Below are positions 13,942-63,973 of a DNA stretch of 64,000 nt, in pieces. Both the position numbers and the translations under genes were made by a program. The notes beneath the pieces were generated by a model. That model was not told the origin of the DNA. It saw only the letters and a program-made list of their open reading frames with translations, and did not search any database. Origin of the DNA: a virus (lineage: Duplodnaviria; Caudoviricetes); the IMG/VR virus record IMGVR_UViG_3300028591_000090, positions 1-64,000 of that record; one strand, written 5' to 3'. The first letter of the stretch is position 1; each line of letters opens with the position of its first letter.

Positions 13942-15192
13942 ATGAAGATAGATTTATCAAAATACGGAGAAGAAGTACAAACAGGAGCAAGATTATGTTC
14001 TCAAATAATGTCATTTAACTTTGAGGCATACATTGTTGGTGGTTGTGTTAGAGATATGGTTATGGGTAATATCGACATTCACGATGTTGATATTGCAACC
14101 AATATGCCTATAGACTTGTTAAAAACACATTTTGATTGTGCAGATAATAACGGAGAAAAACACGGTACTATTCTCGTTAAATATGATGGTTTTGTCTTCG
14201 AGGTAACACAGTTCAGAACAGACGGAGATTATTCTGATGGTCGTCACCCAGATAATGTTATTTTCACTAAAACTCTTAAAGAGGATATGGCACGTAGAGA
14301 TTTTACTATCAATGCTATGGCTATTAATTGTCATGGATTACTGATAGATTATTTTGGTGGAGAGGAAGATTTACAGTCTTTAACATTAAGAACTGTTGGA
14401 GATAGCCAACAAAGATTTGATGAAGATGGTCTTCGTATTCTTCGTGCTATTCGTTTTGCTTCACGATTCAAAATGGAGATACATAAAGATACGTGGAATG
14501 GCATCACAAAAAAGAAAGAAAATCTAAAGAAAATTGCACGAGAAAGAATAGGTGATGAACTATACAAGACTGCACAATATGGTAAAGATGCTTTTACTCG
14601 TATGATTCAGTTAATTATAAACTTACACATTGATGAAGTTATTGATGGTCAACAAATAATTGACTGGCGTTTTGCACTTACTTTATTAAACAACGTAAAA
14701 GAAGAAACAGATACGAAATTCTTATTCGCTGTATTATTCTATAATTGTAAAGACCTAAAAGAATCAATTAAAATGTTTAGGTTCGATAATGATTTATATA
14801 AAACATTGAAGTTTGTTTATGACAATATAAACGTCTTTACTGATATAGAAACAGCAAAAGATTTAGACAAACAATTACAAGTTTATACACACAAGGATTT
14901 CGATACGTTGAATAATATGATGATACTTCTTCAAAAGAATTATTTACACGAAACAGAAAGAAAAGAATTTGATATACTTGTAAAAAATGTTTGGTGCGAT
15001 AATAAAATGTTGAGCGAAGTTCTTCTTGAATATGGTAATGTTGGTGGAAAAGATTTCGGTAGTGCGTTAAAAATATTAAGAAATACTTATTATCTGTATT
15101 ACCGTTATCATAATGAAAAGATAAGCAAAGAACAAATTATTGAAACAGTAAAGAAATTTTTTGGTGAAAATATTTGCAAGTGTGAAAAATAA
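13942..15192 (+). CDS. cca: class II CCA-adding tRNA nucleotidyltransferase
   Basis: VGGCVRD, DVDIAT, RRDFTINAM, EDGLRILRAIRF; window tRNAs lack encoded CCA. Confidence 0.92.
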   Translation: MKIDLSKYGEEVQTGARLCSQIMSFNFEAYIVGGCVRDMVMGNIDIHDVDIATNMPIDLLKTHFDCADNNGEKHGTILVKYDGFVFEVTQFRTDGDYSDGRHPDNVIFTKTLKEDMARRDFTINAMAINCHGLLIDYFGGEEDLQSLTLRTVGDSQQRFDEDGLRILRAIRFASRFKMEIHKDTWNGITKKKENLKKIARERIGDELYKTAQYGKDAFTRMIQLIINLHIDEVIDGQQIIDWRFALTLLNNVKEETDTKFLFAVLFYNCKDLKESIKMFRFDNDLYKTLKFVYDNINVFTDIETAKDLDKQLQVYTHKDFDTLNNMMILLQKNYLHETERKEFDILVKNVWCDNKMLSEVLLEYGNVGGKDFGSALKILRNTYYLYYRYHNEKISKEQIIETVKKFFGENICKCEK

Positions 15193-33418: not shown

Positions 33419-34765
33419 TTAATTTTCATCTTCAATATTTGATTCTCCTGCCTCAAGTTCTTTCGTTTCTTTCTCATAAAAACGTGTTGACTTAACTTTA
33501 TAGGATTCAATACCATTGATTTCCTTTCTTACAACACAGCCCTCTTCTGGTTCGCCATTTTGACAAATATAACAATCTTTTTCGTTATAATCATCTTTAA
33601 GGAATTGCAAGAAAGCCTCCTCAAACTCGATTTCAGTCATATCGTGACAAACTCCACCAATATGGTCTGGATAATGTTTGTCAATATATTGTTCTGCTGT
33701 ACCATAGAATAACAAAGGAACAGCATTCAATCCATATTCTTTACAGAAATCTTGTACTTGTTTCATAGAGAATTCAAATACTTGACCATCTACATTTGTG
33801 TATGTGATTCGATAAATGTAAATCTTATGTTCGTTTGGTTGGCAACCATAAGGATAACCCTTTTGAATACAACCACCATCTTTTAGATAGCCTGCAATTT
33901 CATAATAGAACGTCATACCTTTTTTAAGAAATGGTTTCAATTCTTCATTTGCAATCTCCCAAATGTTTTCTCCATAGAAATCGTGACGCTCTCTGTCTTC
34001 GTAAGCAAACTCATTTTTTACAACTTTACGAGATGCATAAACATAGTCATAATCAACAAACGTCTTATTGAATAACTTCTTTTGTAATTTTTCAAACCAA
34101 GATAGGTTTGTTCTATTGCAAAGAATATAAGAAGAGATACCAGATGTACCGTGAATCTTATATGTAACAGAAATCAAATCATCTCTATGAATCTTTGATA
34201 GGTTACGATACAACATTTGCGTATCAATATGGAATCTAAATTGATTATCTACAAGTCTTGATATTCTTTTTAGTTTTCTATTGCTTTTTGATTCTCTAAA
34301 ACCATTAGAACTTTGCTGATGTTTAACAACATATTTACGACAGATTTCATGTCCGTTAATATTATCAAATTGAACACCAATTTCAAGTTCTTCGTCTTCT
34401 GGACGCATAAACCATTTGATTGTTTCCATTCCGACAAACAATCCCTCTGATTCATTACCACGAAGTTTTACACAACGAACAAGACCATTCTTACCGAAGT
34501 AACCTTTTACGTTTGTATCTTCGTTCATTTCTGCTTTTGAATACATATTATTCTTAAACAAAAATGCATTATCCATTTGTGTACCAACAGGGAAAAATAT
34601 ACCTTTCGTTCCTGCTTCTACATCTTTAGTAACAATAACTTTATTACCAAAAATGATAGCGTGACGCAAATTATCACAATTTGGTAAATCTACTAGATGT
34701 TCAATAGTACAAACAATACCACAATAATTTGAATTTACAACTTCTTTAATAACTGCCTTTCCCAT
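33419..34765 (-). CDS. RNA ligase (Rnl2/DRB0094-type) with N-terminal OB-like domain
   Basis: KIHGTS, YEIAG, EGCVVR, KVKS nucleotidyltransferase motifs. Confidence 0.85.
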   Translation of the reverse strand: MGKAVIKEVVNSNYCGIVCTIEHLVDLPNCDNLRHAIIFGNKVIVTKDVEAGTKGIFFPVGTQMDNAFLFKNNMYSKAEMNEDTNVKGYFGKNGLVRCVKLRGNESEGLFVGMETIKWFMRPEDEELEIGVQFDNINGHEICRKYVVKHQQSSNGFRESKSNRKLKRISRLVDNQFRFHIDTQMLYRNLSKIHRDDLISVTYKIHGTSGISSYILCNRTNLSWFEKLQKKLFNKTFVDYDYVYASRKVVKNEFAYEDRERHDFYGENIWEIANEELKPFLKKGMTFYYEIAGYLKDGGCIQKGYPYGCQPNEHKIYIYRITYTNVDGQVFEFSMKQVQDFCKEYGLNAVPLLFYGTAEQYIDKHYPDHIGGVCHDMTEIEFEEAFLQFLKDDYNEKDCYICQNGEPEEGCVVRKEINGIESYKVKSTRFYEKETKELEAGESNIEDEN

Positions 34766-43831: not shown

Positions 43832-45388
43832 TTACAATATAATTTTTTCTGTTGTTATTTCATAATTTTGTTTCTTGTATATTTCTTCTCGTGAATCATA
43901 TTGTTTTTGCGTATGCTTATATGCATTATCAACAAAATCAATAATGGTTACTGCCTTTTTATTTTTAAAATTTCTTAAACCTCTACCAATAGATTGACCA
44001 ATAAGAATAGGCGACTTGTACGATTCTGCAAAAACAATATAGTGAACATTCTTTAAGTCAATACCAGTTGAGAAAGTACCAAAAGAAGCAACAAGATTCA
44101 TATCACTTTTTTCTATTTCTTTTATATATAAACTTCTTTCAAGATTATTTGTACCACCAAAGATATATTTTGTTGGTTTATATTCATTCATTTTTTCTGC
44201 AAGTCTTTTACCAAACTCACCTTTGACATCGTTAAACAATACCAACACGTTCTTCTTTAGTGAACTCACATATTTAACTATTGCATCTGTACGTTGTTCG
44301 TCAGAAGTTATCATATCTCTTTCTAACTTATACAATGCTTTAAAATACTCCAACTCTTCTTGAGAACCTTTACTTGGTCTATTATTATAAAATTCCAAGT
44401 ATTCATTAAATTCTCCACTATTGATTCTTTTAGCATAATCAATTACTACCTTACGTATCTTTACCGTTGGTGCAAAACCATCTTCTATTAAATTTTTAGG
44501 ATTATAGATAAAAGTAATTGGTCCAAGCATTGATAAATTTTCATAATAATCTGCATAGCCAGTACCAACCATTATCGTTCCAGACAATCCAAAACGATAA
44601 CTTAATGGCATAGATAAACGAATAGCACGTTTTATCGAGTCTGTTTTTGCAGTATGTGCTTCATCTACATTTATTACTCTTATACGTTTAAATATATCAT
44701 TTTGAAGCGTATTAAGACTTTGAAATGTTGAAATAATCACTTCTGATTCATTAAAAGTTTTTTCGTCATATTTATAGTCTCCTCCAATACCCATAACTTT
44801 TAATGGATATTTTTCATTATAATAATCAACAGTAAACTTTTCAATTGTTTGTCCAACCAAATCTTTACGTGGAACAATCATTAAAAATTTCTTCTCTACA
44901 GAAATATTACCCATTTTCTTTAAGTATTGAGCAACAGAATATGATATAAGTGTTTTTCCTGCTGCTGTTGATACTTGTTGTGCAGAATATCTATATTTAA
45001 GTATCTTAAAAATTGATTCATACTGATACCAACGAATTTTTATCTCTGGTTCTACGCCAATAAAAAGATTATCAACAAAAGCAGATATATCTTCCAATGT
45101 AATAGCATTGTTAATAAAATGTTCCATACCTTTGATTTCCAACTCGAATCCTCTATCAGTACAATATTTTTCTAATTCTCCCCACAATCCTATAGGTAAA
45201 CAATTTCTCACAAAAAAACTTGTACACCCATCGGAATATCCATTACGTACAGCAGGCTCCATATATGCATTCTTTCTTTTCTTCCTAAAAAATGTCTGCA
45301 TATTATAATATTCAATTTCAGATGGGGCAAATAAACACTCTATAAAGTGTAAATTATTCTGTATTTGAAAAACAAATTTATTAAACAT
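43832..45388 (-). CDS. uvsW: UvsW-like SF2 helicase
   Basis: TAAGKT, DEAH, GLSGT, FSTGID, QSIGRGLR. Confidence 0.92.
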   Translation of the reverse strand: MFNKFVFQIQNNLHFIECLFAPSEIEYYNMQTFFRKKRKNAYMEPAVRNGYSDGCTSFFVRNCLPIGLWGELEKYCTDRGFELEIKGMEHFINNAITLEDISAFVDNLFIGVEPEIKIRWYQYESIFKILKYRYSAQQVSTAAGKTLISYSVAQYLKKMGNISVEKKFLMIVPRKDLVGQTIEKFTVDYYNEKYPLKVMGIGGDYKYDEKTFNESEVIISTFQSLNTLQNDIFKRIRVINVDEAHTAKTDSIKRAIRLSMPLSYRFGLSGTIMVGTGYADYYENLSMLGPITFIYNPKNLIEDGFAPTVKIRKVVIDYAKRINSGEFNEYLEFYNNRPSKGSQEELEYFKALYKLERDMITSDEQRTDAIVKYVSSLKKNVLVLFNDVKGEFGKRLAEKMNEYKPTKYIFGGTNNLERSLYIKEIEKSDMNLVASFGTFSTGIDLKNVHYIVFAESYKSPILIGQSIGRGLRNFKNKKAVTIIDFVDNAYKHTQKQYDSREEIYKKQNYEITTEKIIL

Positions 45389-47020: not shown

Positions 47021-47495
47021 TTACCCAACCATACTCAAGTGCATCTTGCACAACCTTACGGAAGTCATTATCCATTTTCAAAATAATATCAGCATTGGTT
47101 GTTGTAAACTCTTTTTTCATATTATTAAGAGCGTCCATTTCTCCTAAAAGATTGTCTGCATTGTCTATTATGTTTGCAATGTGTTGTGTTTTATCACTAA
47201 ATTTTAACGATCCATTCTTACACAACTCAATTGCTTTCTCTATCATTGCAGTTTGTGTTTTCAATACGGTATCATATTGATTTTCTTTGTCAAAAAAGAT
47301 TACATTAAAAAATTTATCATACACAACAAAACCATAATTAACCCTATTCTTTATGTCTCTTTTTTCAGTTAATTTCATATATATACCCAATCGCTTTCTT
47401 AAAAAAGCAAGAATAGACGATACATTATTGTCTTTCTCATTGAAATCTGGAAATAATTCTTTTATTTCCTTAATCAAATCTTCACTTATAACCAT
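46980..47495 (-). CDS. hypothetical protein
   Basis: ORF after promoter. Confidence 0.7.
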   Translation of the reverse strand: MVISEDLIKEIKELFPDFNEKDNNVSSILAFLRKRLGIYMKLTEKRDIKNRVNYGFVVYDKFFNVIFFDKENQYDTVLKTQTAMIEKAIELCKNGSLKFSDKTQHIANIIDNADNLLGEMDALNNMKKEFTTTNADIILKMDNDFRKVVQDALEYGWVNGIKYIKDDAGRV

Positions 47496-47539
47496 ATCTT
47501 TATTTTTTTGCAAATATAAAATAAAAATATGAGAAAAAC

Positions 47540-47576
47540 AAAAAAAAGGAGAAACTTTTTAAACAATTCCTCCTCT
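47540..47576 (-). terminator. terminator of RNA operon
   Basis: aggaggaatt/agtttctcct plus T8 on - strand. Confidence 0.6.
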
Positions 47577-47729
47577 ATCTCTTCTTGACTTATCGTCAAG
47601 TAACGCTAAACATAACGCTATCGCATCTGATTGTGATAATTTCTTATTACCAACCTGACAACGTACATTAACAACAATATTTTCCAAATGTTCTTTTGGC
47701 ACGGGAAAAAGATTATTTTATGCTTTTTG

Positions 47730-47805
47730 TGTGTTAGGTTGGATTCGAACCAACGACCTTCTGCTCCACAAACAGACGTTCTAAACCAACTGAACTACTA
47801 ACACC
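47730..47805 (-). tRNA. tRNA-His(GTG)
   Basis: cloverleaf, G-1. Confidence 0.9.
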
Positions 47806-47810
47806 ATGTG

Positions 47811-47884
47811 TTGTTGCGAAGGGACTCGAACCCCTAACGTCCAGAATCAAAATCTGGCATTCTAACCAGTTGAATTACGCAACA
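47811..47884 (-). tRNA. tRNA-Gln(TTG)
   Basis: cloverleaf. Confidence 0.9.
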
Positions 47885-48033
47885 ATAAAAACGGCTTCAC
47901 GTACCGTTTTGTGGGCTTCAATTAGAATACCACGGAAGTTCATGGTGTGTGTGCACCTAACTTCTCTCACCATAAATCCACACAATTAGTGAGACCTAAA
48001 TCATATAATGCTCCAAATAAGGAGACTTCTTTG

Positions 48034-48107
48034 TGGGAACGGAGAGATTCGAACTCTCACTACATAGATTCTAAGTCTATTGCCTCTACCAATTGGGCTA
48101 CGTTCCC
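48034..48107 (-). tRNA. tRNA-Leu(TAG), short variable loop
   Basis: cloverleaf. Confidence 0.88.
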
Positions 48108-48166
48108 ATGTGCCCCATACGGAATCCTCACGCTGGGGCTATGATGACAAGCGTTTTTTATTTAGG

Positions 48167-48248
48167 TGCTTTGAGACAAGTTGGGACTCGAACCCAAATC
48201 CGAGGTTTTATTTTAGACCCCGTGTCTTAACCATTAGACGACAAGCAT
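48167..48248 (-). pseudogene. aberrant tRNA (10-nt anticodon loop, broken acceptor)
   Basis: intact D and T arms. Confidence 0.6.
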
Positions 48249-48263
48249 GAAACACATAAATTG

Positions 48264-48335
48264 TGTTCCGAAAAGGAATCGAACCTTTATTGTCTGCTTA
48301 GAAGGAAGATGTTCTATCCATTGAACTATCGGAAC
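48264..48335 (-). tRNA. tRNA-Arg(TCT)
   Basis: cloverleaf. Confidence 0.88.
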
Positions 48336-48339
48336 TTTT

Positions 48340-48562
48340 GCACACCTAACAGCACTCCTATGGAATTACCCAATGGTCTGTTGCCTTTACTGGCTCAGGG
48401 ACTCTGGTTTGTGTGCTCTACTATAGTCCCTTTTTCGTTAAAATTTGGACGCCTGAAGATGCTTCCCTGCGTGGATACTCACGTCCTCGTTCTTACTTCG
48501 CTACTCACGCTTTTAGTCGACATATTAAACGCTTTTGCTTTTCTGACTCAGTTCATTGCTAG
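48340..48562 (-). ncRNA. unassigned structured RNA ~220 nt
   Basis: GC-richer spacer; ggacg/cgtcc, agggact/agtccct, closing stem. Confidence 0.5.
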
Positions 48563-48564
48563 TG

Positions 48565-48639
48565 TCGTGCATAGGGGATTTGAACCCACTAATTTCTTCC
48601 TTGAAGGGGAAGCGACTTAACCAATTCGTCTAATGCACG
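48565..48639 (-). tRNA. tRNA-Glu(TTC), C33
   Basis: cloverleaf, loop CCTTCAA. Confidence 0.78.
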
Positions 48640-49443
48640 TTTTTTTAATTTATTATAAATCATTCCTTTACCAGCACAACTTCGTGAACAATAAAATGTT
48701 CCAGTTCTAAATTTACCATGTCTATAAAATAATTTACCACAAAAAGCACATTCATAATTATTATCATAACTATTATCATATAGTTCTTCTAAATGTTTTA
48801 CATTATATTTGTCTTTGCAATAATTTATATAAAATAACATATCATCATAATATAAAACTTTAGAATTTTCTGGTAAATGTTTTAATTTTTCTTCTGTTAT
48901 ATTTGTTTTAAAACCTTTTATTTCATATATTATACCATCTATTTCAAAATCTGGATTATAAAAATGTTTTTCTCCATCAAATTCATATTCTAATTTTTTA
49001 TCACATCTTTTTATGTTTGAATTGTTATCAAGATGATAAATAAGAAATGCAAGTTCCCAAGTAGAATCTAAAAAGAAACCTTTATAAAAACCTTTATGTC
49101 CTCTACCACTACCTTTTCTATATCCTCCATACTTAACATTTTCTTTCAACCATTTTTCTTTACATTCTTCTGAACAATATTTAGAATTTCTCTTTCTTAA
49201 ATCAAATTCAGTACTGCAATATTTACATTTTTTAATTTTTGGTATTTTGGCTTTTTCTCTTCTAATTTCGTTATTAAAAGGGACCCATTTACCACCATGC
49301 ATTAAAGTGTAACCAATTTTCTTTTTTGTTTCTTCTGAATGGTGTCGTGTATTTGCACAACTTTTAGAACAAAATCTTCCAGAACCATAATTCCCATTAT
49401 GTTCTTTTCCACAATTTTCACAAATAAAAATTTGATTTTCCAT
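48589..49443 (-). CDS. free-standing PD-(D/E)XK homing-endonuclease-like protein with Zn fingers and NUMOD3
   Basis: STWE...YNPDF...EIKG; HSEETKKKI; CxxC...FCSxSC. Confidence 0.8.
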   Translation of the reverse strand: MENQIFICENCGKEHNGNYGSGRFCSKSCANTRHHSEETKKKIGYTLMHGGKWVPFNNEIRREKAKIPKIKKCKYCSTEFDLRKRNSKYCSEECKEKWLKENVKYGGYRKGSGRGHKGFYKGFFLDSTWELAFLIYHLDNNSNIKRCDKKLEYEFDGEKHFYNPDFEIDGIIYEIKGFKTNITEEKLKHLPENSKVLYYDDMLFYINYCKDKYNVKHLEELYDNSYDNNYECAFCGKLFYRHGKFRTGTFYCSRSCAGKGMIYNKLKKRALDELVKSLPLQGRN

Positions 49444-49580
49444 AATTATTTTTATCTTTTTTTATAGGTTATTGGTAGTAACCTTTATTTTATTTAGTTT
49501 TAAAAAATAGTAGTTAGATAAAACTATGGATAATTTTATCAATTGGCTACCAACCAGATGTCCTACTATTTTTATAGTTT

Positions 49581-49663
49581 ATGCTTGTGTATGATAGGCT
49601 TCGAACCATATGCCTCTCTATCTCTATAGATTGTTCTGCCATATTAAACTACAACACAAGCAT
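49581..49663 (-). pseudogene. aberrant tRNA-like RNA
   Basis: extended acceptor, T-loop, no proper anticodon loop. Confidence 0.55.
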
Positions 49664-49783
49664 TTCGTTTTACTAAAAACTCTACGACTTTGCAAAACTA
49701 CTCCGTGGAAAACGATACACGTTTCATTTACTTAAACCATCCATTGAGACCGGATGCAGTCTCATTTAAGCGTGTGAATTTTG

Positions 49784-49860
49784 CGGTGACAGTAGGATTC
49801 GAACCTACGACCCAGGGATTAACAGTCCCTTGCTCTAAAAACCAACTGAGCTATGTCACC
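49784..49860 (-). tRNA. tRNA-Asn(GTT)
   Basis: cloverleaf. Confidence 0.92.
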
Positions 49861-49864
49861 ATAA

Positions 49865-49937
49865 TATTTAAGTTTGGAATCGAACCAAAGCCTTTCTCAA
49901 TACATGGAGAAGATGCAGACCACTACACTACTTAAAC
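49865..49937 (-). pseudogene. aberrant tRNA (8-nt anticodon loop CATGTATT)
   Basis: acceptor, D and T arms intact. Confidence 0.6.
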
Positions 49938-49938
49938 G

Positions 49939-50012
49939 TGGACCAGACTGGGCTTGAACCAGTGACCTCCTGATTATGAGTCAGTTGCTCTGACCAACTG
50001 AGCTACAGGTCC
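49939..50012 (-). tRNA. tRNA-Ile2/Met(CAT)
   Basis: cloverleaf. Confidence 0.88.
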
Positions 50013-50031
50013 AAAAAAAGTGGTAGAAGGA

Positions 50032-50142
50032 ATAGTTTCAAATCCATAGAAAAACATGGAAATTGTTTATAATTTAATAATTACTGGGTGAACTACTACA
50101 CCCTCTATCCCATTGTTGAAAACTTTTGAGAATACTTTTCTA
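50032..50142 (-). ncRNA. orphan tnpB right-end / omegaRNA-like copy
   Basis: near-identical to 61907-62017. Confidence 0.75.
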
Positions 50143-50159
50143 ATTAATAACTACCACTT

Positions 50160-50286
50160 AAATCTTCGCCGTGCTGACCTTACACCTATGATTGCTACTC
50201 TTACACATATTAGTTGTACACCTAAATATGTGATATGGTGCACCGTTTCACAACCACGCAGACTCGAACTGCACCTGCGACATGCT
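50160..50286 (-). ncRNA. YrlA-type Y RNA (permuted tRNA mimic)
   Basis: order T arm, closed acceptor, D arm; 3' GGCGAAG motif. Confidence 0.7.
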
Positions 50287-50292
50287 TTTTTG

Positions 50293-50363
50293 CTCGGTCG
50301 AAGGGACTCGAACCCTCATACGCCCCCGTCAATGGGGCTGTTCTACCGTTAAACTACAACCAA
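50293..50363 (-). tRNA. atypical tRNA (loop ATTGACG, nominal TGA on class I body)
   Basis: full cloverleaf, non-canonical loop. Confidence 0.55.
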
Positions 50364-50458
50364 GAAACACATTCTAACGCTGCAACATTATTATGTGCCA
50401 ATGGACATAAATGCTTTAATCGTTTGCAGACAATCTTTGCATTCGCCAATCCATTTAG

Positions 50459-50530
50459 AACAAGAAATGAGAATCGAACTCACATATCCAGTTTTGAAGA
50501 CTGGAGCACTAACCGTTGTGCTATTCTTGC
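50459..50530 (-). tRNA. opal suppressor tRNA (TCA), Gly-like body
   Basis: CCAGT-CTTCAAA-ACTGG. Confidence 0.85.
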
Positions 50531-50539
50531 ATTTTTATG

Positions 50540-50626
50540 TGGCTCAAATCGGACTCGAACCGATACGAGCATTTCTGCCCCTGGGATTTTAAGTCCCATG
50601 CGTACTACCAATTTCGCCACTGAGCC
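50540..50626 (-). tRNA. tRNA-Leu(TAA)
   Basis: class II cloverleaf. Confidence 0.92.
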
Positions 50627-50634
50627 AAAATTTG

Positions 50635-50751
50635 AGTCGCCAACTGGATTCGAACCAGTATCTCCAATGTGATTTAGGAAAATCTTACGTATTGTACAGA
50701 ATGAGGCTGTACCGACCTCAAATACGTTGGCACCTATTAGACGATGGCGAC
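50635..50751 (-). ncRNA. tRNA-like RNA with pseudoknot insertion
   Basis: perfect acceptor and T arm, ~45 nt insert. Confidence 0.65.
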
Positions 50752-50757
50752 AAAAAG

Positions 50758-50860
50758 TTGTGTTAGATGGATTCGAACCAACAATGTATGCTATTCTACA
50801 TGCTTATTTACATACTCCTACCACAAATGTAGGTGGGTTTACCATTTCCCCTATAACACG
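50758..50860 (-). pseudogene. atypical tRNA (TTG loop, oversized variable arm)
   Basis: D, anticodon and T arms present. Confidence 0.55.
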
Positions 50861-50867
50861 AATTTTG

Positions 50868-50939
50868 TTGCGAGAGAGGGATTCGAACCCACGACCTACA
50901 GCTTATGAGGCTGCCGAGCTACCTCTGCTCTATCTCGCA
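50868..50939 (-). tRNA. tRNA-Met(CAT), initiator-like
   Basis: cloverleaf. Confidence 0.85.
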
Positions 50940-50952
50940 ATATATTTTATTG

Positions 50953-51026
50953 TGGTCGTTCTACGACTCGAACGTAGGACTTCTTCGGTATCAGCGAAGT
51001 ACTCTAACCAACTGAGTTAAACGACC
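50953..51026 (-). tRNA. tRNA-Ile(GAT)
   Basis: cloverleaf. Confidence 0.88.
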
Positions 51027-51029
51027 AAG

Positions 51030-51435
51030 AATAATCAAAACTAAAAAGTGTGTTTAATCATTAAGTAACATTATAGTAAACACAGATTATTGTCTACATC
51101 CGTAACACGGCTTTCGTTACTAATCACTTTGCAAGCAAAGGCAACAATAATCTTTTACTTTTTTACAAACTCTTTTTCTGTTCGATGGCGAGTTTATTTA
51201 TGGTCCATTTCCGTTGCCAAGTAACATAATTCATAGCAAACAATCACGGAAACCTACGATGAGTTGTTGAGTAACAAACAAAAGTTGCTATATCAAGGAC
51301 GACATATATATAATCGGCTAAATGACCGACTTTCAGAACCTTGTTCTGCTATCCGAGATTATCTTACCTTGATTTAAGATAGATACAAATTCATTGTATC
51401 TCTTGGAGAGTTTAGGCAGTAGTTGTCTTTCTACT
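51030..51435 (-). ncRNA. unassigned large structured RNA ~400 nt
   Basis: no ORF; many hairpins. Confidence 0.55.
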
Positions 51436-51437
51436 TG

Positions 51438-51511
51438 CGGGTAGTACGAGATTCGAACTCGTGAACTCCTCATAGACAGTGAGGAATGATAGACCGCTTC
51501 ACCAACTACCC
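51438..51511 (-). tRNA. tRNA-Asp(GTC)
   Basis: cloverleaf. Confidence 0.9.
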
Positions 51512-51629
51512 AAATTTGAGGTTATTTTTATACGTATGGCTCGTAAACTTATTCTGTCTTTCTTATGCGTTCTGCTGTTACACATTAGTCTAAAGAAGTA
51601 ACATCTATAAGTATATTTACGATTTCCAT

Positions 51630-51730
51630 TTCACCTCAAGCATCATTTGTTTAAATGCTTACGTTTACATCTTTTTCCTTTTCCCGTATGTCAAAGAACT
51701 CGTTTGTTTTATTTAACGATGCAAATATAC
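51630..51730 (-). promoter_or_regulatory. internal promoter plus boxA-like leader 2
   Basis: gtatatttgc; gttctttgacatacgggaaaa shared with 53775-53796. Confidence 0.75.
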
Positions 51731-51785
51731 AACAATGTTTTGAAACAACCAAATAAAACAACAACTTTTTTTTATTTTTTTTTTG

Positions 51786-51871
51786 CGGAGATTGTAGGAC
51801 TTGAACCTACACGTCTTACGACTACTGACAGTTTAGCAAACTGCTCCCTTACCAATTAGGGTTAAATCTCC
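51786..51871 (-). tRNA. tRNA-Ser(GCT)
   Basis: class II cloverleaf. Confidence 0.9.
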
Positions 51872-51881
51872 ATATTATATG

Positions 51882-51954
51882 TACTCGTGCAGAGACTCGA
51901 ACTCCAATCTTCAGATCCGTAGTCTGATATTCTAATCCATTGAACTACACGAGC
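51882..51954 (-). tRNA. tRNA-Arg(ACG)
   Basis: cloverleaf. Confidence 0.9.
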
Positions 51955-51959
51955 AGTTG

Positions 51960-52031
51960 AGCACTCTATTGGAGTCAAACCAATTTATACGGTTTTGCAG
52001 ACCGCCACCTAAATCGTCCGGTACAGAGTGC
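51960..52031 (-). tRNA. tRNA-Cys(GCA)
   Basis: cloverleaf, somewhat divergent. Confidence 0.8.
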
Positions 52032-52195
52032 AAAAATGTGTTGGAAAATCCTCGTGCAACACCACACGCCAACTCAACGATTTGGCTCCATCTCGTAAGA
52101 TGCTACTTTAGAAAGTTTTCCCAAAGCATTCACACAATTAGTGTGAGAGACGTTTCGATCCTACTTTTAACATGTATTATATGTAGGCTATAATG

Positions 52196-52267
52196 AGCAG
52201 ATAAAGAGAATCGAACTCTCATCTCCAGAGTGGAAGTCTGGAGCACTAACCATTGTGCTATATCTGC
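52196..52267 (-). tRNA. tRNA-Gly(TCC)
   Basis: cloverleaf. Confidence 0.9.
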
Positions 52268-52272
52268 ATAAA

Positions 52273-52512
52273 TTATCTTAATTCAATTAATTCTTCTTTT
52301 TCTATTGCTTTACGAATCCAACGCATCAAAATAATTGCTTTATCATAATGGCACATAAACGTAGCAGTTTCTCCTACATCGTGTGTGTCTGCCAAATTGA
52401 TTTCCAATTGATATTTTTTACCACTTTCTGACGTTAATTCATAAATTGCAACACCGCCTGCTTTAACGCAAACCATATCTGCATTTCCTTTAATAATATC
52501 TTTCAAATCCAT
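52273..52512 (-). CDS. conserved small phage protein inside tRNA array
   Basis: DVG.TATF....KAI.LMRWIRKAI. Confidence 0.75.
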   Translation of the reverse strand: MDLKDIIKGNADMVCVKAGGVAIYELTSESGKKYQLEINLADTHDVGETATFMCHYDKAIILMRWIRKAIEKEELIELR

Positions 52513-52531
52513 AATATATGTATTATTTTTG

Positions 52532-52604
52532 TCTGGGTAGCAAGACTCGAACTTGCGACCTGATGGTCCCAAACCACCCGTTCTACCAACTGAACTATAC
52601 CCAG
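52532..52604 (-). tRNA. tRNA-Pro(TGG)
   Basis: cloverleaf. Confidence 0.9.
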
Positions 52605-52613
52605 TTTATTTAG

Positions 52614-52686
52614 TGACTCCGATGAGGTTCGAACTCATGACCCCATCCTTAAAAGGGATGTGCTCTCCCAACTGAGCTACGAAGTC
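52614..52686 (-). tRNA. tRNA-Lys(TTT)
   Basis: cloverleaf. Confidence 0.92.
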
Positions 52687-52954
52687 ATGTGCTAATATCG
52701 TATGTTCTTCGTTTTGTTTGTTCTGGGCGGTTAAAAGAGAACAACAGATTTGGTAGTCTTTTCAATCTTAGCATTTTCTGAAAAGAATCGTTCCGCACCT
52801 ACGTCTAACTTTTGTACTATTCACCACGAGTTTACGATGACCTTGAGTCTGTTTACGATTACCAGTCGTTCCAGAAGTCCATCTACATAGTTACTTTGGC
52901 AAGTTTCGTCTATGCCAGCGTTTGTTTATAACCTCAACGCAATTTGGTATTTTG

Positions 52955-53029
52955 TGGAAGCGATGGGACTTGAACCCACGACTTTCTGCGTGCAAGGCAG
53001 ATGTTCTAGCCAAACTGAACTACACCCCC
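52955..53029 (-). tRNA. tRNA-Ala(TGC)
   Basis: cloverleaf, G3:U70. Confidence 0.9.
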
Positions 53030-53261
53030 ATAAAAGAATCTTGACGTATTTCTTATGAGAATTCCTTCAACGGATTATTTAGTGCCATTAAATAACCATT
53101 CCTTTGATTTTGTCTGTTATGCATAAATGAACTTATGCACTCTAACCATATGTCATATACGTTAGAATGTTTTCCCGACAAATCGTGAAGGTTAAGGCTC
53201 AAAGTACTAAGTTTACCTTTTCTTCACGACTGCTATGATATAGCGTCAGGCTGCAATTGCG

Positions 53262-53346
53262 TGGGAGAGGAGGGATTCGAACCCCCTGTGTTTCTATGTG
53301 CTGGTTTTACAGACCAGTGCTACTCCACCATCGTAGCCGCTCTCCC
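53262..53346 (-). tRNA. tRNA-Tyr(GTA)
   Basis: class II cloverleaf. Confidence 0.9.
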
Positions 53347-53352
53347 AAAATG

Positions 53353-53439
53353 CGGAGAGGGAGGGATTTGAACCCCCGGTGCTTTTTAGGGCACGACGGT
53401 TTTCAAGACCGTTGCAATAAGCCTCTCTGCCACCTCTCC
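53353..53439 (-). tRNA. tRNA-Ser(TGA)
   Basis: class II cloverleaf. Confidence 0.92.
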
Positions 53440-53452
53440 GAGTAAAATTTTG

Positions 53453-53526
53453 TTGGCTTAGTGAGACTCGAACTCACACTTTATAGGTTTTGAATCTATT
53501 TCCTCTACCGATTGGGATACAAGCCA
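53453..53526 (-). tRNA. tRNA-Leu(CAA), short variable loop
   Basis: cloverleaf. Confidence 0.85.
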
Positions 53527-53533
53527 ATGTTGT

Positions 53534-53587
53534 CTATCTAGTGTGATTCGAACACACGTGCTCATGTTTCTAATGCAGGCCTAGATA
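53534..53587 (-). pseudogene. D-armless tRNA remnant
   Basis: TATCTAG/CTAGATA and GTGTG-TTCGAAT-CACAC. Confidence 0.55.
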
Positions 53588-53601
53588 ATGATAAAATTAA
53601 G

Positions 53602-53674
53602 AGCTCCCACACGGATTTGAACCGCAGTCCCCTGATTACAAGTCAGGTATAATAACCAACTATACGATAGGAGC
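53602..53674 (-). tRNA. tRNA-Thr(TGT)
   Basis: cloverleaf. Confidence 0.9.
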
Positions 53675-53713
53675 GTAAGAAGGTTTTTGTTGTTACACAG
53701 GTGGATAAACCAC

Positions 53714-53850
53714 TTCACCTTTAGCATCATTTAATAAATGCTTCTGCGTTTGTTTGAATTTTGCTCTATAATCTTTTTCCCGTATGTCAAAGAACTTTTG
53801 GATTATTTGTTGTCGGTTTATCCATTCCGATTTTTTTTGCAAATATACAC
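53714..53850 (-). promoter_or_regulatory. promoter plus boxA-like leader 1 of RNA operon
   Basis: gtatatttgc; aagttctttgacatacggg. Confidence 0.75.
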
Positions 53851-53864
53851 AATATTTTTAAATT

Positions 53865-54027
53865 AAAAAAGGCTTTTGAATTTTTTTTATGTTCAAAAGC
53901 CTTTTCGATATATATATTGTGTATTGATTTCTACCTAAAAGACTTTTGAACATAAACGAGGGGCACTTTCGCAATTTTTATGTTGCGAATACAATGTTGT
54001 TCCTGCTATGTTAAAAATCTTTTTCAT
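53865..54027 (-). promoter_or_regulatory. putative leader-peptide attenuator (30-aa ORF 54027..53935)
   Basis: mutually exclusive 1:2 and 2:3 hairpins with T-run. Confidence 0.6.
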
Positions 54028-54219
54028 TTTTTTTATTTATTATTAAATTTTTATTTCTTTTTAAATTTTAAATTTTGGTAAACATTCATCATTTTCTTTT
54101 TTTAATTTTTCTAAATCACTCTTATATGGTTTTCTACCATTTTTTTGATTTTTCTTTAATCTTCCACCACCAATAAGAGGGATTCTTTTTCCAACATAAA
54201 ATCCCATAATTTTTAAATT

Positions 54220-54753
54220 TTAATCAAACCAATAAATTATTCTAATATTTTCTGTTTCTAAATGAAATCCTTCTTCATTACATGATAGGTCAGATTGATA
54301 TACTTGACCTAAAATTTCGTGAAAGAAAGAATGTAAATTCACATAATCGTTAAATGCAGAAAACTCATCTTCCAATATTGCATTTACATCTTTTCTTTCG
54401 AGGTCATCAAAAGATTTATCTTTTAGTAAACCTCTACATATTTCGTATTCATTATAATGACAGAAAGCATTTAGTTCATTATGCAATCTTCCATAGTGGA
54501 AATCACCCAATTGTGATATTTCTGCTAAAGTTGCCCAAGATTGTCCATAACTATTTTTTGATTGTGCAAAACTATTTACTTTTGCAGTACAATCTTTTGG
54601 CAAACCTCTTTTTTCAAATGGTCTTTCCTCGAAACTATTAGCAGAAAACATATCACGTATTCTACCTTGTTTCCATTGTGGACGTTTAGAAATTAATTTC
54701 CAAGTACCATCTGAATATTTTGCTTCTACTATGTAATTAAAATATGAACTCAT
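54220..54753 (-). CDS. conserved phage protein
   Basis: RGLPKD...SWATL.E...RIIYWFD. Confidence 0.75.
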   Translation of the reverse strand: MSSYFNYIVEAKYSDGTWKLISKRPQWKQGRIRDMFSANSFEERPFEKRGLPKDCTAKVNSFAQSKNSYGQSWATLAEISQLGDFHYGRLHNELNAFCHYNEYEICRGLLKDKSFDDLERKDVNAILEDEFSAFNDYVNLHSFFHEILGQVYQSDLSCNEEGFHLETENIRIIYWFD

Positions 54754-61906: not shown

Positions 61907-63246
61907 ATAGTTTCAAAATCCATAGCAAAATATGGAAATTGTTTATAATTTAACAATTACTGGGTGAACTACAACACCCTCTATCCCATCGTTGAAAACT
62001 TTTGGGAATGCTTTTCTCATGATGTTATAGCTTCCGTTTACATCTGCGTTTATCTTGTTCCCATTTTCTGAAATAAACAAGCCACGGCGAACACGCTTGC
62101 CTTTATAAACATCATGCTTTTTAATTTCTTCCAAATCAAGGAAACTGCATTTAGATGTGTAGTTTTCCTCGTTTGTAATTACTTTTATCCCCACCTTTTC
62201 GCATTTGTATGAAATCATTTCAACAAATCTACTGTGGGGTATTTGTATGAAGTTCTGATTGTTTTTTGAACCGATGTTACAGTCTTTCTTCCATCCGTCG
62301 TTCTTTCCAATAACCAGAACAGATATATTCTTGTCTTTTAAATCATTGACTATTCTCTTACTTGCACGATGCAAGTAGTTGTCTACTTTATTATTCCTTT
62401 TATTTGTGAGCCTTCTTGTCCTATGCGAATGCTTTTTCTTATTGACTTTTTCTAATTTAGACTTATGTTTCGCAAGTTCCTTATTATAGAACTGGTTCAT
62501 CGATTTCAAAGGTTTTCCGTTTATTATAACTGGCTGTTCTCCATACGAATATGTTACCGTAGCAAGGTTATTAACGCCTAAATCAATTGAGGCAATTCTT
62601 TTATTGAATTTTACTTTTTCTACATCATCTATTGTATAGATTACCTCAATTACATATTGCTCGATTCTTGGAACAATCCTTACACAATTTATTGATTTAA
62701 AGTCGTTTATTTTTGTATAAAATTCTATGTTTACTTTTGATAGTTTAATTTTATGGGACTTATCAAATACTTTTTTTGAGATAGTCTGATTGTTGAATAC
62801 TGTAACATATCTTCCATCTTCTTTGTGTAAGAATTTTGGAAACTTGATGTTTTTATTATCAACATTATTTGAACGAATCATTCCGAAAAACGAGTTGCAA
62901 GTCGCATGAACAGCACGAAGTGTCGCCTGAGCAACCTTCTGCGGAAGTCGCTTGAAGCATTCATCGTTCTTCATATATAAATACGAATCATTCAATACAT
63001 TATATGTTTTGCTTTCTTCATATTCCTTTCGTATCAGATATAATGTCCTGTTATATATGTTTTTTGAAGAAAAACACAGCGAATCACATTCCTTATATAA
63101 GGAATGATTTCTATTAATAATATGTCTTTCTACCAATTGCATTTCTGTATAATAATACAGTTTCTTTTTATTATTTATTTGCAAAAATAATTGATTTTTT
63201 TTGTCAAATAAATTGTATTGTTTCCATAAATTTTCTATAATGTTAT
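61907..63246 (-). mobile_element. IS200/IS605-family (IS1341-like, tnpB only) element
   Basis: excision restores TAT AAA ATG ATT TAA stop of upstream gene; TTTAT left flank. Confidence 0.75.
61943..63142 (-). CDS. tnpB: TnpB RNA-guided nuclease (rearranged RuvC type)
   Basis: MQLVERHII, SIDLGVNNL, VIGKN..WK, EENYTSK, NADVNGSYNI. Confidence 0.92.
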   Translation of the reverse strand: MQLVERHIINRNHSLYKECDSLCFSSKNIYNRTLYLIRKEYEESKTYNVLNDSYLYMKNDECFKRLPQKVAQATLRAVHATCNSFFGMIRSNNVDNKNIKFPKFLHKEDGRYVTVFNNQTISKKVFDKSHKIKLSKVNIEFYTKINDFKSINCVRIVPRIEQYVIEVIYTIDDVEKVKFNKRIASIDLGVNNLATVTYSYGEQPVIINGKPLKSMNQFYNKELAKHKSKLEKVNKKKHSHRTRRLTNKRNNKVDNYLHRASKRIVNDLKDKNISVLVIGKNDGWKKDCNIGSKNNQNFIQIPHSRFVEMISYKCEKVGIKVITNEENYTSKCSFLDLEEIKKHDVYKGKRVRRGLFISENGNKINADVNGSYNIMRKAFPKVFNDGIEGVVVHPVIVKL

Positions 63247-63973
63247 ATAAAAATAATACAGACAATAAACTTGCTGGAATATTTTCATAAGTGAAATAAC
63301 AATTTTTAATATTCATTGCTGTATCTTTATATATCTTAATATTATTTAATTTATTTAAATTTATTTTAAAAACAACATATTGTTTAAGTCCAAGACTATC
63401 TGCCAATTCTGATAATTGTTCATCTATTGTACTAAAATCACTTGTTGAATATAAAAAAATCTTTTCTGGATAATATCTATATTCTGCACTTCGGCAACGT
63501 AATCCTTTTTTCATAATAAAGTTATAGTTTCTTTTATTTGTTATATGGAAACAAATTCCTTTATTTTCATTAAAGATTATATCCGTTGCATCTGTTGTAT
63601 AAACTGGTTCTATATATAATGTATCATCATCATTATAAGTAATATAATAATTAAAAAAATCTAATATATTTTTAAAATGTTCATTTAACAGTATTTCTAT
63701 TTTCCTATCTTTATTTTTACATTTAATTTCAAGGTTTGTTTTATCATCACTTGTTATCTTATTATATTCAACATCATCTGCAACATATTGTTTTAATTTT
63801 GCAATAAGAGAGTCTATATTATGAGATTGTAACATTTCACCTATAAAATCATATCTCCAATCTTCATTAAATTTTTCTTCAATCAATGAAAAGTCATTAC
63901 CGAAGAAATCTTTCAAAAATTTCTTTTTCTCGCAACATTTACAATATTCGTCAAACAGTAATACTTTTTTCAT
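63247..63973 (-). CDS. ART/Tpt1-like fold protein whose stop was displaced by the IS (reads into tnpB)
   Basis: FHIT...I.KKGL...IFL...NIP..L; LLFDEY start. Confidence 0.55.

What the first reader, a model, noticed from the sequence alone, without database searches (positions are those of the whole stretch)
49717..50751. Recurrent covarying pseudoknot module, once free and once grafted into a tRNA body
Copy A (50687-50727): ACGUAUU [UGAGGU-CGGUACA-GCCUCA] UUC UGUAC AAUACGU, inserted in the D loop of a tRNA-like RNA with perfect acceptor and T arm. Copy B (49717-49775): GCUUAAA [UGAGAC-UGCAUCCG-GUCUCA] AU GGAUG G UUUAAGU. Both share the UGAG/CUCA hairpin. The outer stem and the loop-downstream pairing (GUACA/UGUAC vs CAUCC/GGAUG) differ in sequence but both pair. 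I do not recognise this motif. It could be a protein-binding decoy (for example an RNA-antitoxin mimic) delivered by tRNA processing.
Basis: partly seen in the sequence, partly recalled or inferred. Interest (0 to 1): 0.7.

Follow-up and report, generated by a model that had tools for sequence, protein, structure and literature searches.

The report
Twice-used knotted RNA module, phage tRNA operon
A rumen phage's tRNA operon holds two diverged copies of a small stem-closed RNA hairpin whose loop pairs with its own 3' bulge; one copy sits in a non-decoding tRNA look-alike, I found no relatives elsewhere, and its job is unknown.

Summary
On the minus strand, the sense of the 24-tRNA operon, two 41-42-nt modules (50727->50687 and 49771->49730) share one plan. 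Each has a 7-bp outer stem, a 6-bp UGAG..CUCA hairpin and a 5-bp Watson-Crick match between the hairpin loop and the 3' bulge.

All 18 pairs form in both copies, and 8 differ on both sides. Chance is unlikely: the strict descriptor gives 0.3 hits per shuffled genome, and loop-bulge pairing has p about 0.015 per copy.

Three corrections:
- Copy A's host RNA (50751->50636) has a perfect acceptor stem and T arm but is not a decodable tRNA. Whether the insert sits in the D loop, replaces the anticodon loop (Rfam's alignment), or ends a rod is unresolved.
- Copy B is not free. It is the main arm of a 93-nt RNA closed by an 8-bp stem that starts at the discriminator base of tRNA-Asn.
- With linkers this short, all three helices fully formed look strained. 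Two near-isoenergetic alternative hairpins fit equally well.

No third copy, Rfam family or outside homolog turned up, though close relatives could not be reached.

The closest known things are the function-unknown stable RNAs in the T4 and T5 tRNA clusters. A type III antitoxin reading fails its tests. The scan has noted similar tRNA-framed knotted RNAs on other phage DNA, but no sequence look-alike of this one.

The parts
50636..50751 (-). RNA A: a 116-nt non-decoding tRNA look-alike that carries module A. It lies about 5 nt after the previous tRNA-like gene and about 9 nt before tRNA-Leu(UAA).
   Evidence: Sequence. ARAGORN does not call it. The Rfam tRNA model scores 30.8 bits (gathering 29), and only in a small-window search, with a 59-nt local insert.
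50745..50751 (-). Acceptor stem, 5' strand GUCGCCA. It pairs with 50636-50642 (UGGCGAC). The discriminator U is at 50635, and no CCA is encoded.
   Evidence: pair probabilities 0.74-1.0.
50643..50659 (-). T arm ACUGG-UUCGAAU-CCAGU.
   Evidence: pair probabilities 0.83-0.98.
50687..50727 (-). Module A (41 nt). P0 is 50727-50721 with 50693-50687. S1 is 50720-50715 with 50707-50702. The loop is 50714-50708. The S2 3' strand UGUAC is 50698-50694 and pairs with loop GUACA.
50671..50684 (-). Small second hairpin GAUUU-UCCU-AAAUC, 2 nt after module A.
   Evidence: It is present in the better-scoring global folds, but its pair probability is low (0.16).
49692..49784 (-). RNA B: a 93-nt unit closed by an 8-bp terminal stem (GCAAAAUU/AGUUUUGC). 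The first base of that stem is the discriminator G of tRNA-Asn. The unit holds module B and a second hairpin.
   Evidence: terminal-stem pair probabilities 0.79-1.0.
49730..49771 (-). Module B (42 nt). P0 is 49771-49765 with 49736-49730. S1 is 49764-49759 with 49750-49745. The loop is 49758-49751. The S2 3' strand GGAUG is 49742-49738 and pairs with loop CAUCC.
47690..53800 (-). The surrounding tRNA operon: 24 ARAGORN tRNAs, several weak tRNA look-alikes and an HNH endonuclease gene (48589-49443). A terminator-like hairpin lies at 47576-47545.

Best explanation
A and B are two diverged copies of one structured RNA domain, made as part of the phage's long tRNA precursor.

Each copy is a stem-closed hairpin whose loop can pair with the 3' bulge of its own stem. 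That gives either a compact pseudoknot, with the A-U-rich top of the outer stem frayed, or two alternative hairpins of nearly equal stability.

Each copy is the main arm of a small non-decoding RNA. A (116 nt) rides on a tRNA-like acceptor stem and T arm. That frame should make it a substrate for RNase P, 3' trimming and the phage's own CCA-adding enzyme. B (93 nt) starts at the discriminator base of tRNA-Asn, so 3' processing of that tRNA sets it free.

I infer that the released RNAs are stable trans-acting RNAs whose conserved part, the UGAG/CUCA-based knot, is bound by a protein of the phage or the host. In that view they act as a natural tRNA-scaffolded aptamer or decoy.

Shown here: the anatomy, the compensatory changes, the operon context and the failure to decode. 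Inferred: processing, stability and a binding partner.
For: - The structure is kept through 8 double-sided changes with none broken, and loop-bulge pairing has p about 0.015 per copy.
- The descriptor is rare in shuffled genomes: 0.3 hits per genome against 2 hits within 1 kb of the array.
- G-U pairs fit the tRNA-sense strand only.
- A has a perfect acceptor stem and T arm, but no cloverleaf is called even after the module is deleted.
- B's 8-bp closing stem starts at G73 of tRNA-Asn.
- No internal terminator lies near either copy.
- The phage encodes a CCA-adding enzyme and an ATP-dependent RNA ligase.
- Precedent exists. The T4 and T5 tRNA clusters hold annotated stable and tRNA-like RNAs of 106-144 nt with unknown function, next to homing endonucleases.
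Against: - There are only two copies, both in one genome.
- No homolog appeared in about 54 whole IMG/VR records, about 330 loci, INPHARED or GTDB. The structure therefore rests on paralog comparison alone.
- No expression data are available.
- No partner protein is identified.
- The global fold of A is ambiguous. Three models score -24.9 to -30.4 kcal/mol against an MFE of -32.4, and the outer stem has a pair probability of only 0.2 in the nested model.
- In B's 93-nt context the nested model gives S2 a pair probability of about 0.01, because S1 can extend to 8 bp.
Confidence: 0.4

Rival explanations
1. The modules are cis-acting precursor elements. They would act as folding insulators or ribonuclease sites that help the 6-kb polycistronic tRNA precursor fold and be cut correctly, with no role once released.
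For: - Both lie within the operon directly against tRNA ends.
- B's closing stem includes the discriminator of tRNA-Asn, so it could affect 3' processing.
- The two alternative hairpins are near-isoenergetic, as expected for a folding switch.
Against: - A sits inside its own tRNA-like frame rather than in a spacer.
- Most other spacers of the array are a few nucleotides long and need no such element.
- Selection on an internal loop-bulge pairing is not obviously needed for an insulator.
Confidence: 0.2
2. These are decaying tRNA genes that picked up a small palindromic insert, either a mobile hairpin element or an intron-like insert of the kind reported in Lak megaphage tRNAs. The pairing would be kept for the element's own propagation or by recent common descent, not for a phage function.
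For: - The array holds at least five other defective or odd tRNA look-alikes and an HNH homing endonuclease.
- The genome carries a TnpB-like gene.
- Unexplained inserts in phage tRNA genes are on record (PMC6784885).
- All pairs of A are Watson-Crick except one, so A fits the descriptor on both strands.
Against: - The outer stems differ in sequence (3 of 7 pairs changed on both sides, 1 on one side), unlike transposon terminal repeats.
- There are only two copies in 184 kb, with no target duplication or shared flank.
- Removing the module does not restore a callable tRNA.
- G-U pairs point to RNA-level constraint.
Confidence: 0.2
3. The module is a conformational switch or small aptamer. The two exclusive hairpins (S1 against S2), or the knotted state, would respond to a ligand, temperature or protein and change the fate of the RNA.
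For: - S1 and S2 states differ by only 1.7-1.8 kcal/mol in both isolated modules.
- Pair probabilities are 0.56 against 0.43 in A.
- The size and topology resemble minimal pseudoknot riboswitches.
Against: - There is no downstream expression platform and no regulated ORF.
- No match to any riboswitch family at E up to 10.
- In B's full context S1 extends to 8 bp and dominates.
Confidence: 0.1
4. The resemblance is chance in a stem-rich, AT-rich region.
For: - The descriptor was written after seeing both copies.
- No third copy or outside homolog exists.
- TGAG..CTCA alone is not enriched.
Against: - The strict descriptor is expected about 0.005 times in a 6-kb single strand.
- The joint loop-bulge probability is about 2e-4.
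- Both copies share the UGAG/CUCA base, the same register and the same strand.
Confidence: 0.07

Closest known systems
Stable RNAs of the phage T5 tRNA region: RNA1 and RNA2 ('tRNA-like stable RNA with unknown functions') and RNAI and RNAIII ('stable RNA with unknown functions'), from the NC_005859 annotation
   Same: - They lie in the tRNA cluster on the tRNA strand and abut tRNAs. RNAIII starts the base after tRNA-His.
- They are 106-144 nt long, and HNH endonucleases lie among the tRNAs.
- RNA1 and RNA2 keep an acceptor stem and T arm with extra material in the middle, as A does.
- RNAI and RNAIII are closed by a long terminal stem, as B is.
   Different: - There is no sequence similarity.
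- No stem-closed loop-bulge module was found in the T5 locus on the tRNA strand; the only relaxed-descriptor hits lie on the opposite strand.
- Their function is also unknown, so the comparison gives a class, not a mechanism.
Phage T4 rnaC (species 1) and rnaD (species 2) small stable RNAs (NC_000866 annotation)
   Same: - They sit at the end of the tRNA cluster, are co-oriented with it, and are 119-139 nt long.
- rnaC carries a T arm (CCGGG-UUCGAAU-CCCGG).
- The homing endonuclease segB lies inside the cluster.
   Different: There is no sequence similarity.
Type III antitoxin RNAs (ToxI, CptI, TenpI) and phage pseudo-ToxI
   Same: They are small pseudoknotted RNAs, and phages are known to carry mimics (own knowledge).
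   Different: - Those are tandem direct repeats of 34-45 nt next to an endoribonuclease toxin gene, and the toxin cuts them into units.
- Here there are two dispersed copies 1 kb apart, each closed by its own outer stem.
- There is no tandem array and no Rfam hit.
Engineered tRNA scaffolds for RNA expression (Ponchon and Dardel) and natural tRNA-linked RNAs cut out by RNase P or Z (MALAT1 mascRNA, MHV68 tRNA-miRNA units); own knowledge
   Same: In each case a tRNA-shaped part supplies processing and stability for an attached structured RNA. That is what the anatomy of A, and B's junction with tRNA-Asn, suggest.
   Different: Those are eukaryotic or artificial systems. Nothing here shows that processing or stabilisation happens.
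'Enigmatic' inserts in Lak megaphage tRNA genes (Devoto et al. 2019, PMC6784885)
   Same: They are unexplained short inserts in tRNA genes of gut and rumen phages, and they match no Rfam family.
   Different: Lak inserts split otherwise normal tRNAs at the anticodon loop. Here, removing the module leaves no callable tRNA.

Membership tests
Canonical tRNA (Rfam RF00005) | 7-bp acceptor stem and a T arm with a UUCRANY loop | tested here: met
   GUCGCCA/UGGCGAC and ACUGG-UUCGAAU-CCAGU.
Canonical tRNA (Rfam RF00005) | Anticodon arm with a 5-bp stem and a 7-nt loop with U33, so that the RNA can decode | tested here: not met
   - The best candidate is UCCUA-AAUCACA-UUGGA, with a U-U mismatch and no U33.
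- ARAGORN makes no call, and with the module deleted gives only a poor call at a relaxed threshold.
- Rfam replaces the loop by a 59-nt insert.
Canonical tRNA (Rfam RF00005) | Model score above the gathering threshold | tested here: inconclusive
   There is no hit in the whole-window or 6.7-kb searches. A 131-nt search gives 30.8 bits against a gathering score of 29.
Type III antitoxin RNA (ToxI-like) | Tandem direct repeats of the unit | tested here: not met
   Tandem Repeats Finder finds no such array in 47400-54300. The two copies are about 950 nt apart.
Type III antitoxin RNA (ToxI-like) | An adjacent endoribonuclease toxin gene (ToxN, AbiQ, CptN or TenpN) | tested here: inconclusive
   The neighbours are tRNA genes. 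The only protein gene in the array is an HNH endonuclease. The rest of the genome was not screened for ToxN-like genes.
Type III antitoxin RNA (ToxI-like) | Similarity to a catalogued antitoxin RNA | tested here: not met
   No Rfam hit at E up to 10 on either stretch.
tmRNA | tRNA-Ala-like end with G3-U70, a tag reading frame and several pseudoknots | tested here: not met
   ARAGORN finds no tmRNA. Position 3-70 is C-G, and a 116-nt RNA has no room for a tag frame.
Small pseudoknot riboswitches and self-cleaving ribozymes in Rfam (preQ1, SAM-II, fluoride, twister, pistol, hatchet, hammerhead, HDV-like) | A match to the family covariance model | tested here: not met
   No hit at E up to 10 in small-window searches.
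tRNA intron (group I, or Lak-type insert) | Removing the insert restores a normal tRNA | tested here: not met
   ARAGORN run on the module-deleted sequence gives no call at the default threshold. At 41 nt the insert is far too short for a group I intron.
Stable RNAs of phage tRNA clusters (T4 rnaC and rnaD; T5 RNA1, RNA2, RNAI and RNAIII), a class defined by position rather than homology | A non-tRNA structured RNA of about 100-145 nt inside the tRNA operon, on the same strand, abutting tRNAs | tested here: met
   A is 116 nt and B is 93 nt, and both are flanked by tRNA genes. Compare the T4 and T5 annotations.
Stable RNAs of phage tRNA clusters (T4 rnaC and rnaD; T5 RNA1, RNA2, RNAI and RNAIII), a class defined by position rather than homology | Accumulates as a discrete stable RNA in infected cells | not testable with these tools
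   No expression data are available, and the phage is uncultured.
Miniature inverted-repeat or IS200/IS605-derived palindromic element | Many copies with conserved terminal repeats and a target-site signature | tested here: not met
   There are two copies only. The outer stems differ at 4 of 7 pairs, and the flanks share nothing.

The most novel reading that the evidence does not exclude
The phage uses tRNA-processing enzymes to make a natural tRNA-scaffolded aptamer. The stem-closed knot would be a protein-binding decoy, for instance against a host tRNA-directed or RNA-directed defence nuclease. One copy is mounted on an acceptor/T-arm frame and the other is released from the 3' end of tRNA-Asn.
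Probability: 0.15. Interest if true: 0.75.

Novelty: new variant of a known kind. Interest (0 to 1): 0.42.

Why it matters
Phage tRNA clusters have been known since the T4 and T5 era to hold stable, partly tRNA-shaped RNAs whose function is still unknown.

This case offers a small, well-defined module that recurs with compensatory changes in two such RNAs of one operon. It could serve as a handle for pull-downs, probing and mutagenesis to find out what this class of RNAs does.

If the module is a decoy or sensor delivered by tRNA processing, it would add a new type of phage counter-measure and a natural counterpart of engineered tRNA scaffolds.

If it is only a decaying tRNA with a hairpin insert, it is a minor annotation point.

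Tried and rejected
**Further copies or a known family**
- Rfam at gathering and E-value thresholds gave nothing but tRNA.
- A covariance model R1 built from A and B found no third copy in the window or genome. It hit only intrinsic terminators in 81 helicase-relative loci, and nothing in 54 whole IMG/VR records.

**Reaching relatives through the neighbouring UvsW-like helicase**
- The nearest reachable relatives are 51-55% identical.
- None has a tRNA array beside the helicase, and synteny ends one gene away.
- The whole record of the closest IMG/VR relative holds a single tRNA.

**Sequence and pattern scans**
- Exact hairpins in IMG/VR gave none.
- Exact hairpins in GTDB genomes gave two chance coding hits for B and none for A.
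- Short-query blastn against INPHARED gave chance hits only.
- TGAG..CTCA followed by a T loop returned mainly T arms of tandem tRNAs, with no module-like hit.
- TGAG..CTCA..GTAnnnTTTTCC returned what look like coding sequence families, judged by eye.
- The pattern for A's acceptor stem and T arm found one phage tRNA-Cys with the same acceptor, and an unrelated 116-nt element in two proviruses.
- A suppressor-tRNA anticodon-arm pattern gave four loci, none with a module.

**Readings rejected**
- tmRNA, type III antitoxin, intron, transposon end and known ribozyme or riboswitch (see the membership tests).
- An apparent homology of the downstream 'UUUUCC' hairpins of A and B. B's ensemble prefers a different hairpin.
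- Reading the loops as anticodon mimics (GUA, CAU). That property follows automatically from any 5-bp loop helix.

**Other**
- The earlier-findings index holds no sequence look-alike.
Full report
**Setting.** The window is the first 64 kb of a 183.6-kb AT-rich virus record that CheckV rates 69% complete.

Between about 47.7 and 53.7 kb the minus strand carries 24 tRNA genes by ARAGORN, and 23 pass Rfam's threshold. The array also holds:
- several weak tRNA look-alikes;
- an HNH endonuclease gene at 48589-49443;
- a terminator-like hairpin at its 3' end, 47576-47545.

Elsewhere the window encodes a CCA-adding enzyme (13942-15192), an ATP-dependent RNA ligase (33419-34765), a UvsW-like helicase (43832-45388) and a large TnpB-like protein (61943-63973). 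The plus-strand ORFs that overlap the finding run across tRNA genes, and I treat them as spurious.

**The observation.**
- Copy A is 50727->50687, 41 nt.
- Copy B is 49771->49730, 42 nt.

Each has three helices:
- a 7-bp outer stem (P0);
- directly after it, a 6-bp hairpin (S1) that starts UGAG and ends CUCA, with a 7-8-nt loop;
- after 2-3 nt, a 5-nt stretch that is Watson-Crick complementary to loop positions 3-7 (S2), followed within 0-1 nt by the 3' strand of P0.

Of the 18 pairs, 8 are the same in both copies, 2 differ on one side and 8 differ on both sides. None is broken. The G-U pairs (U-G closing S1 in A, G-U opening P0 in B) fit only the tRNA-sense strand.

**Is it more than chance?**
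- A strict descriptor (7, 6 and 5 bp, at most two G-U pairs) matches four loci in the whole genome on both strands. Two are A and B, one is a terminator-like A/T hairpin, and one is an AT-rich site (159701-159744) whose context I did not examine. Ten shuffled genomes gave 0.3 hits on average. That is about 0.005 expected for one strand of the 6-kb array.
- Given a hairpin and an 8-nt bulge, a Watson-Crick run of 5 or more between loop and bulge arises in about 1.5% of shuffles for each copy, so about 2e-4 jointly.
- The TGAG..CTCA word pair by itself is not enriched.
- A relaxed descriptor finds no further copy in the array.
- A covariance model built from A and B finds none in the genome.

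I conclude that the two modules are related by descent and that their pairing has been kept. This rests on two paralogs only.

**Pseudoknot or switch?** Nested-model energies put P0+S1 and P0+S2 within 1.7-1.8 kcal/mol of each other in both copies. In the full RNA A, S1 and S2 have pair probabilities of 0.56 and 0.43. In B's full 93-nt context S1 can extend to 8 bp and dominates, with S2 near 0.01.

The linkers are very short: 0 nt between P0 and S1, 2 nt before S2, 0 nt between S2 and S1, 2-3 nt across S1, and 0-1 nt back to P0. From A-form geometry (my inference, not a computation), a coaxial S1-S2 pseudoknot cannot also be closed by a fully formed P0. It could form if the three A-U pairs at the top of P0, which are A-U in both copies, open up. 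Covariation cannot tell a knot from two exclusive hairpins, because both use the same pairs.

**The RNA that carries copy A (50751->50636, 116 nt).** It has a perfect 7-bp acceptor stem, a discriminator U, no encoded CCA and a canonical T arm. It sits about 5 nt after the preceding tRNA-like gene and about 9 nt before tRNA-Leu(UAA).

It is not a decodable tRNA. ARAGORN does not call it, with or without intron search, and with the module deleted gives only a poor call at a relaxed threshold.

Three global folds compete:
It scores -24.9 kcal/mol.
- Rfam's tRNA model aligns a D arm GUCU-AAU-AGGU and an anticodon stem CCAA/UUGG, and puts 59 nt (the module plus a small hairpin GAUUU-UCCU-AAAUC) where the anticodon loop should be. 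It scores 30.8 bits against a gathering score of 29, and only in a 131-nt search. The fold scores -26.6 kcal/mol.
- A rod extends the acceptor stem by UC-UCUAAU/AUUGGA-GA and ends in the module and the small hairpin. It scores -30.4 kcal/mol.

The unconstrained MFE is -32.4 kcal/mol and holds only 4.5% of the ensemble. So 'inserted in the D loop' is possible but not established.

**Copy B is not free.** The stretch 49784->49692 folds into a unit closed by an 8-bp stem, GCAAAAUU/AGUUUUGC, with pair probabilities of 0.79-1.0. The first base of that stem is the discriminator G of tRNA-Asn. Inside are module B (P0 0.64-0.78; five of the six S1 pairs 0.99, the outermost 0.63) and a second hairpin.

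A and B therefore look like two versions of one plan: a closing stem, the module, a small second hairpin, then the closing stem again. A's closing stem continues into a tRNA-like acceptor and T-arm frame. A finer homology of the second hairpins (both regions contain UUUUCC) did not survive the ensemble calculation for B.

**Search for relatives.**
- No Rfam family other than tRNA matches either stretch, even at E up to 10.
- Exact hairpin words are absent from IMG/VR. In GTDB genomes they occur only as two chance coding matches.
- blastn of both regions against 50,697 phage records gave chance hits only.
- The relatives I could reach, at 49-55% identity, have no tRNA array nearby and share only one neighbouring gene.
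- The model R1 found nothing in 54 whole virus records, and only terminators in helicase loci.
- Three structure-inspired pattern scans of IMG/VR returned tandem-tRNA T arms, what look like coding sequence families, or unrelated elements.

One useful by-product: a phage tRNA-Cys with the acceptor stem GUCGCUA/UGGCGAC and U73 (L336). The array here has no tRNA-Cys, so A's frame may descend from one. This is a lead only.

Tools that leave out very near records may hide close relatives. The negative result means 'none reachable', not 'none exist'.

**What it most likely is.** Phage tRNA clusters are known to hold stable non-tRNA RNAs.
- The T4 record annotates rnaC (139 nt, with a T arm) and rnaD (119 nt) at the end of its cluster, which also holds the homing endonuclease segB.
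- The T5 record annotates RNA1 and RNA2 as 'tRNA-like stable RNA with unknown functions', and RNAI and RNAIII as 'stable RNA with unknown functions'. They lie among tRNAs and HNH endonucleases, and RNAIII starts the base after tRNA-His.

A matches the RNA1/RNA2 type, with an acceptor and T-arm frame and a foreign middle. B matches the RNAI/RNAIII type, a rod closed by a terminal stem against a tRNA end. No sequence similarity links them, so this is a class by position and shape.

My best reading (confidence 0.4) is that A and B are non-decoding RNAs cut out of the precursor by tRNA-processing enzymes, and that the recurrent module is their working part, probably a protein-binding surface. The rivals are:
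- a cis-acting folding or processing element (0.2);
- decaying tRNA genes with a hairpin or intron-like insert, as reported without explanation in Lak megaphages (PMC6784885) (0.2);
- a conformational switch or aptamer (0.1);
- chance (0.07).

**The antitoxin idea.** Type III antitoxins are tandem repeats next to a toxin gene and are processed by it. Here there is no tandem array, the neighbours are tRNAs and an HNH gene, and no ToxI-type match exists. The membership test fails. A decoy function in general is not excluded.

**Earlier notes of this scan.** Notes on other genomes describe tRNA-framed pseudoknot RNAs and pseudoknot modules in tRNA regions of other rumen and gut phages. I used them as leads, to the T5 RNAs and to the Lak paper. 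No sequence look-alike of this stretch is in that index, and I could not test whether those modules share this fold.

**Verdict.** This is a real, recurrent, uncatalogued RNA module in two non-decoding RNAs of a phage tRNA operon. It is a new variant of an old, still unexplained kind. Evidence is limited to one genome, and the function is unknown.

Noticed in passing
window 50758-50860 (-): A tRNA-Gln(UUG)-like gene directly upstream of RNA A carries a 33-nt insert in the variable region. The Rfam tRNA model scores 38 bits and ARAGORN does not call it. The insert contains a 12-nt unit repeated 2.2 times (ATGCTATTCTAC on the + strand, 50788-50813).
   Followed up: partly
window 49865-49937 (-) and 50458-50530 (-): The first is a tRNA with a four-base anticodon call (tgta). 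The second is a UGA-reading tRNA (anticodon tca, which ARAGORN labels SeC). Both lie between the two modules.
   Followed up: no
window 48173-48248, 49586-49657 and 51961-52030 (-): Three sub-threshold tRNA look-alikes (Rfam 23-26 bits) in the same operon. Together with RNA A and the Gln-like gene, the array holds at least five non-canonical tRNA-shaped genes.
   Followed up: no
window 48589-49443 (-): An HNH homing-endonuclease gene lies inside the tRNA operon, as in the T4 (segB) and T5 (hegC, hegD) tRNA clusters.
   Followed up: partly
window 13942-15192 (+) and 33419-34765 (-): The phage encodes its own CCA-adding enzyme and an ATP-dependent RNA ligase (PF09414). None of the array sequences I read (tRNA-Asn, RNA A) encodes CCA.
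   Followed up: partly
window 61943-63973 (-): An unusually long (676 aa) TnpB-like protein with OrfB_IS605 and Cas12f1-like TNB domains confined to the C-terminal half.
   Followed up: no
L335 6642-6757 (+) and L334 (same element): A 116-nt element in two IMG/VR proviruses has the acceptor stem GUCGCUA/UGGCGAC, a T arm and a Gln-like anticodon arm, with about 40 extra nt in the D region. Neither ARAGORN nor Rfam calls it. Its fold z-score is -3.0.
   Followed up: partly
L336 9413-9485 (+): A phage tRNA-Cys(GCA) has nearly the same acceptor stem (GUCGCUA/UGGCGAC) and the same discriminator U as RNA A. The array in the window has no tRNA-Cys, Phe, Trp or Val.
   Followed up: no
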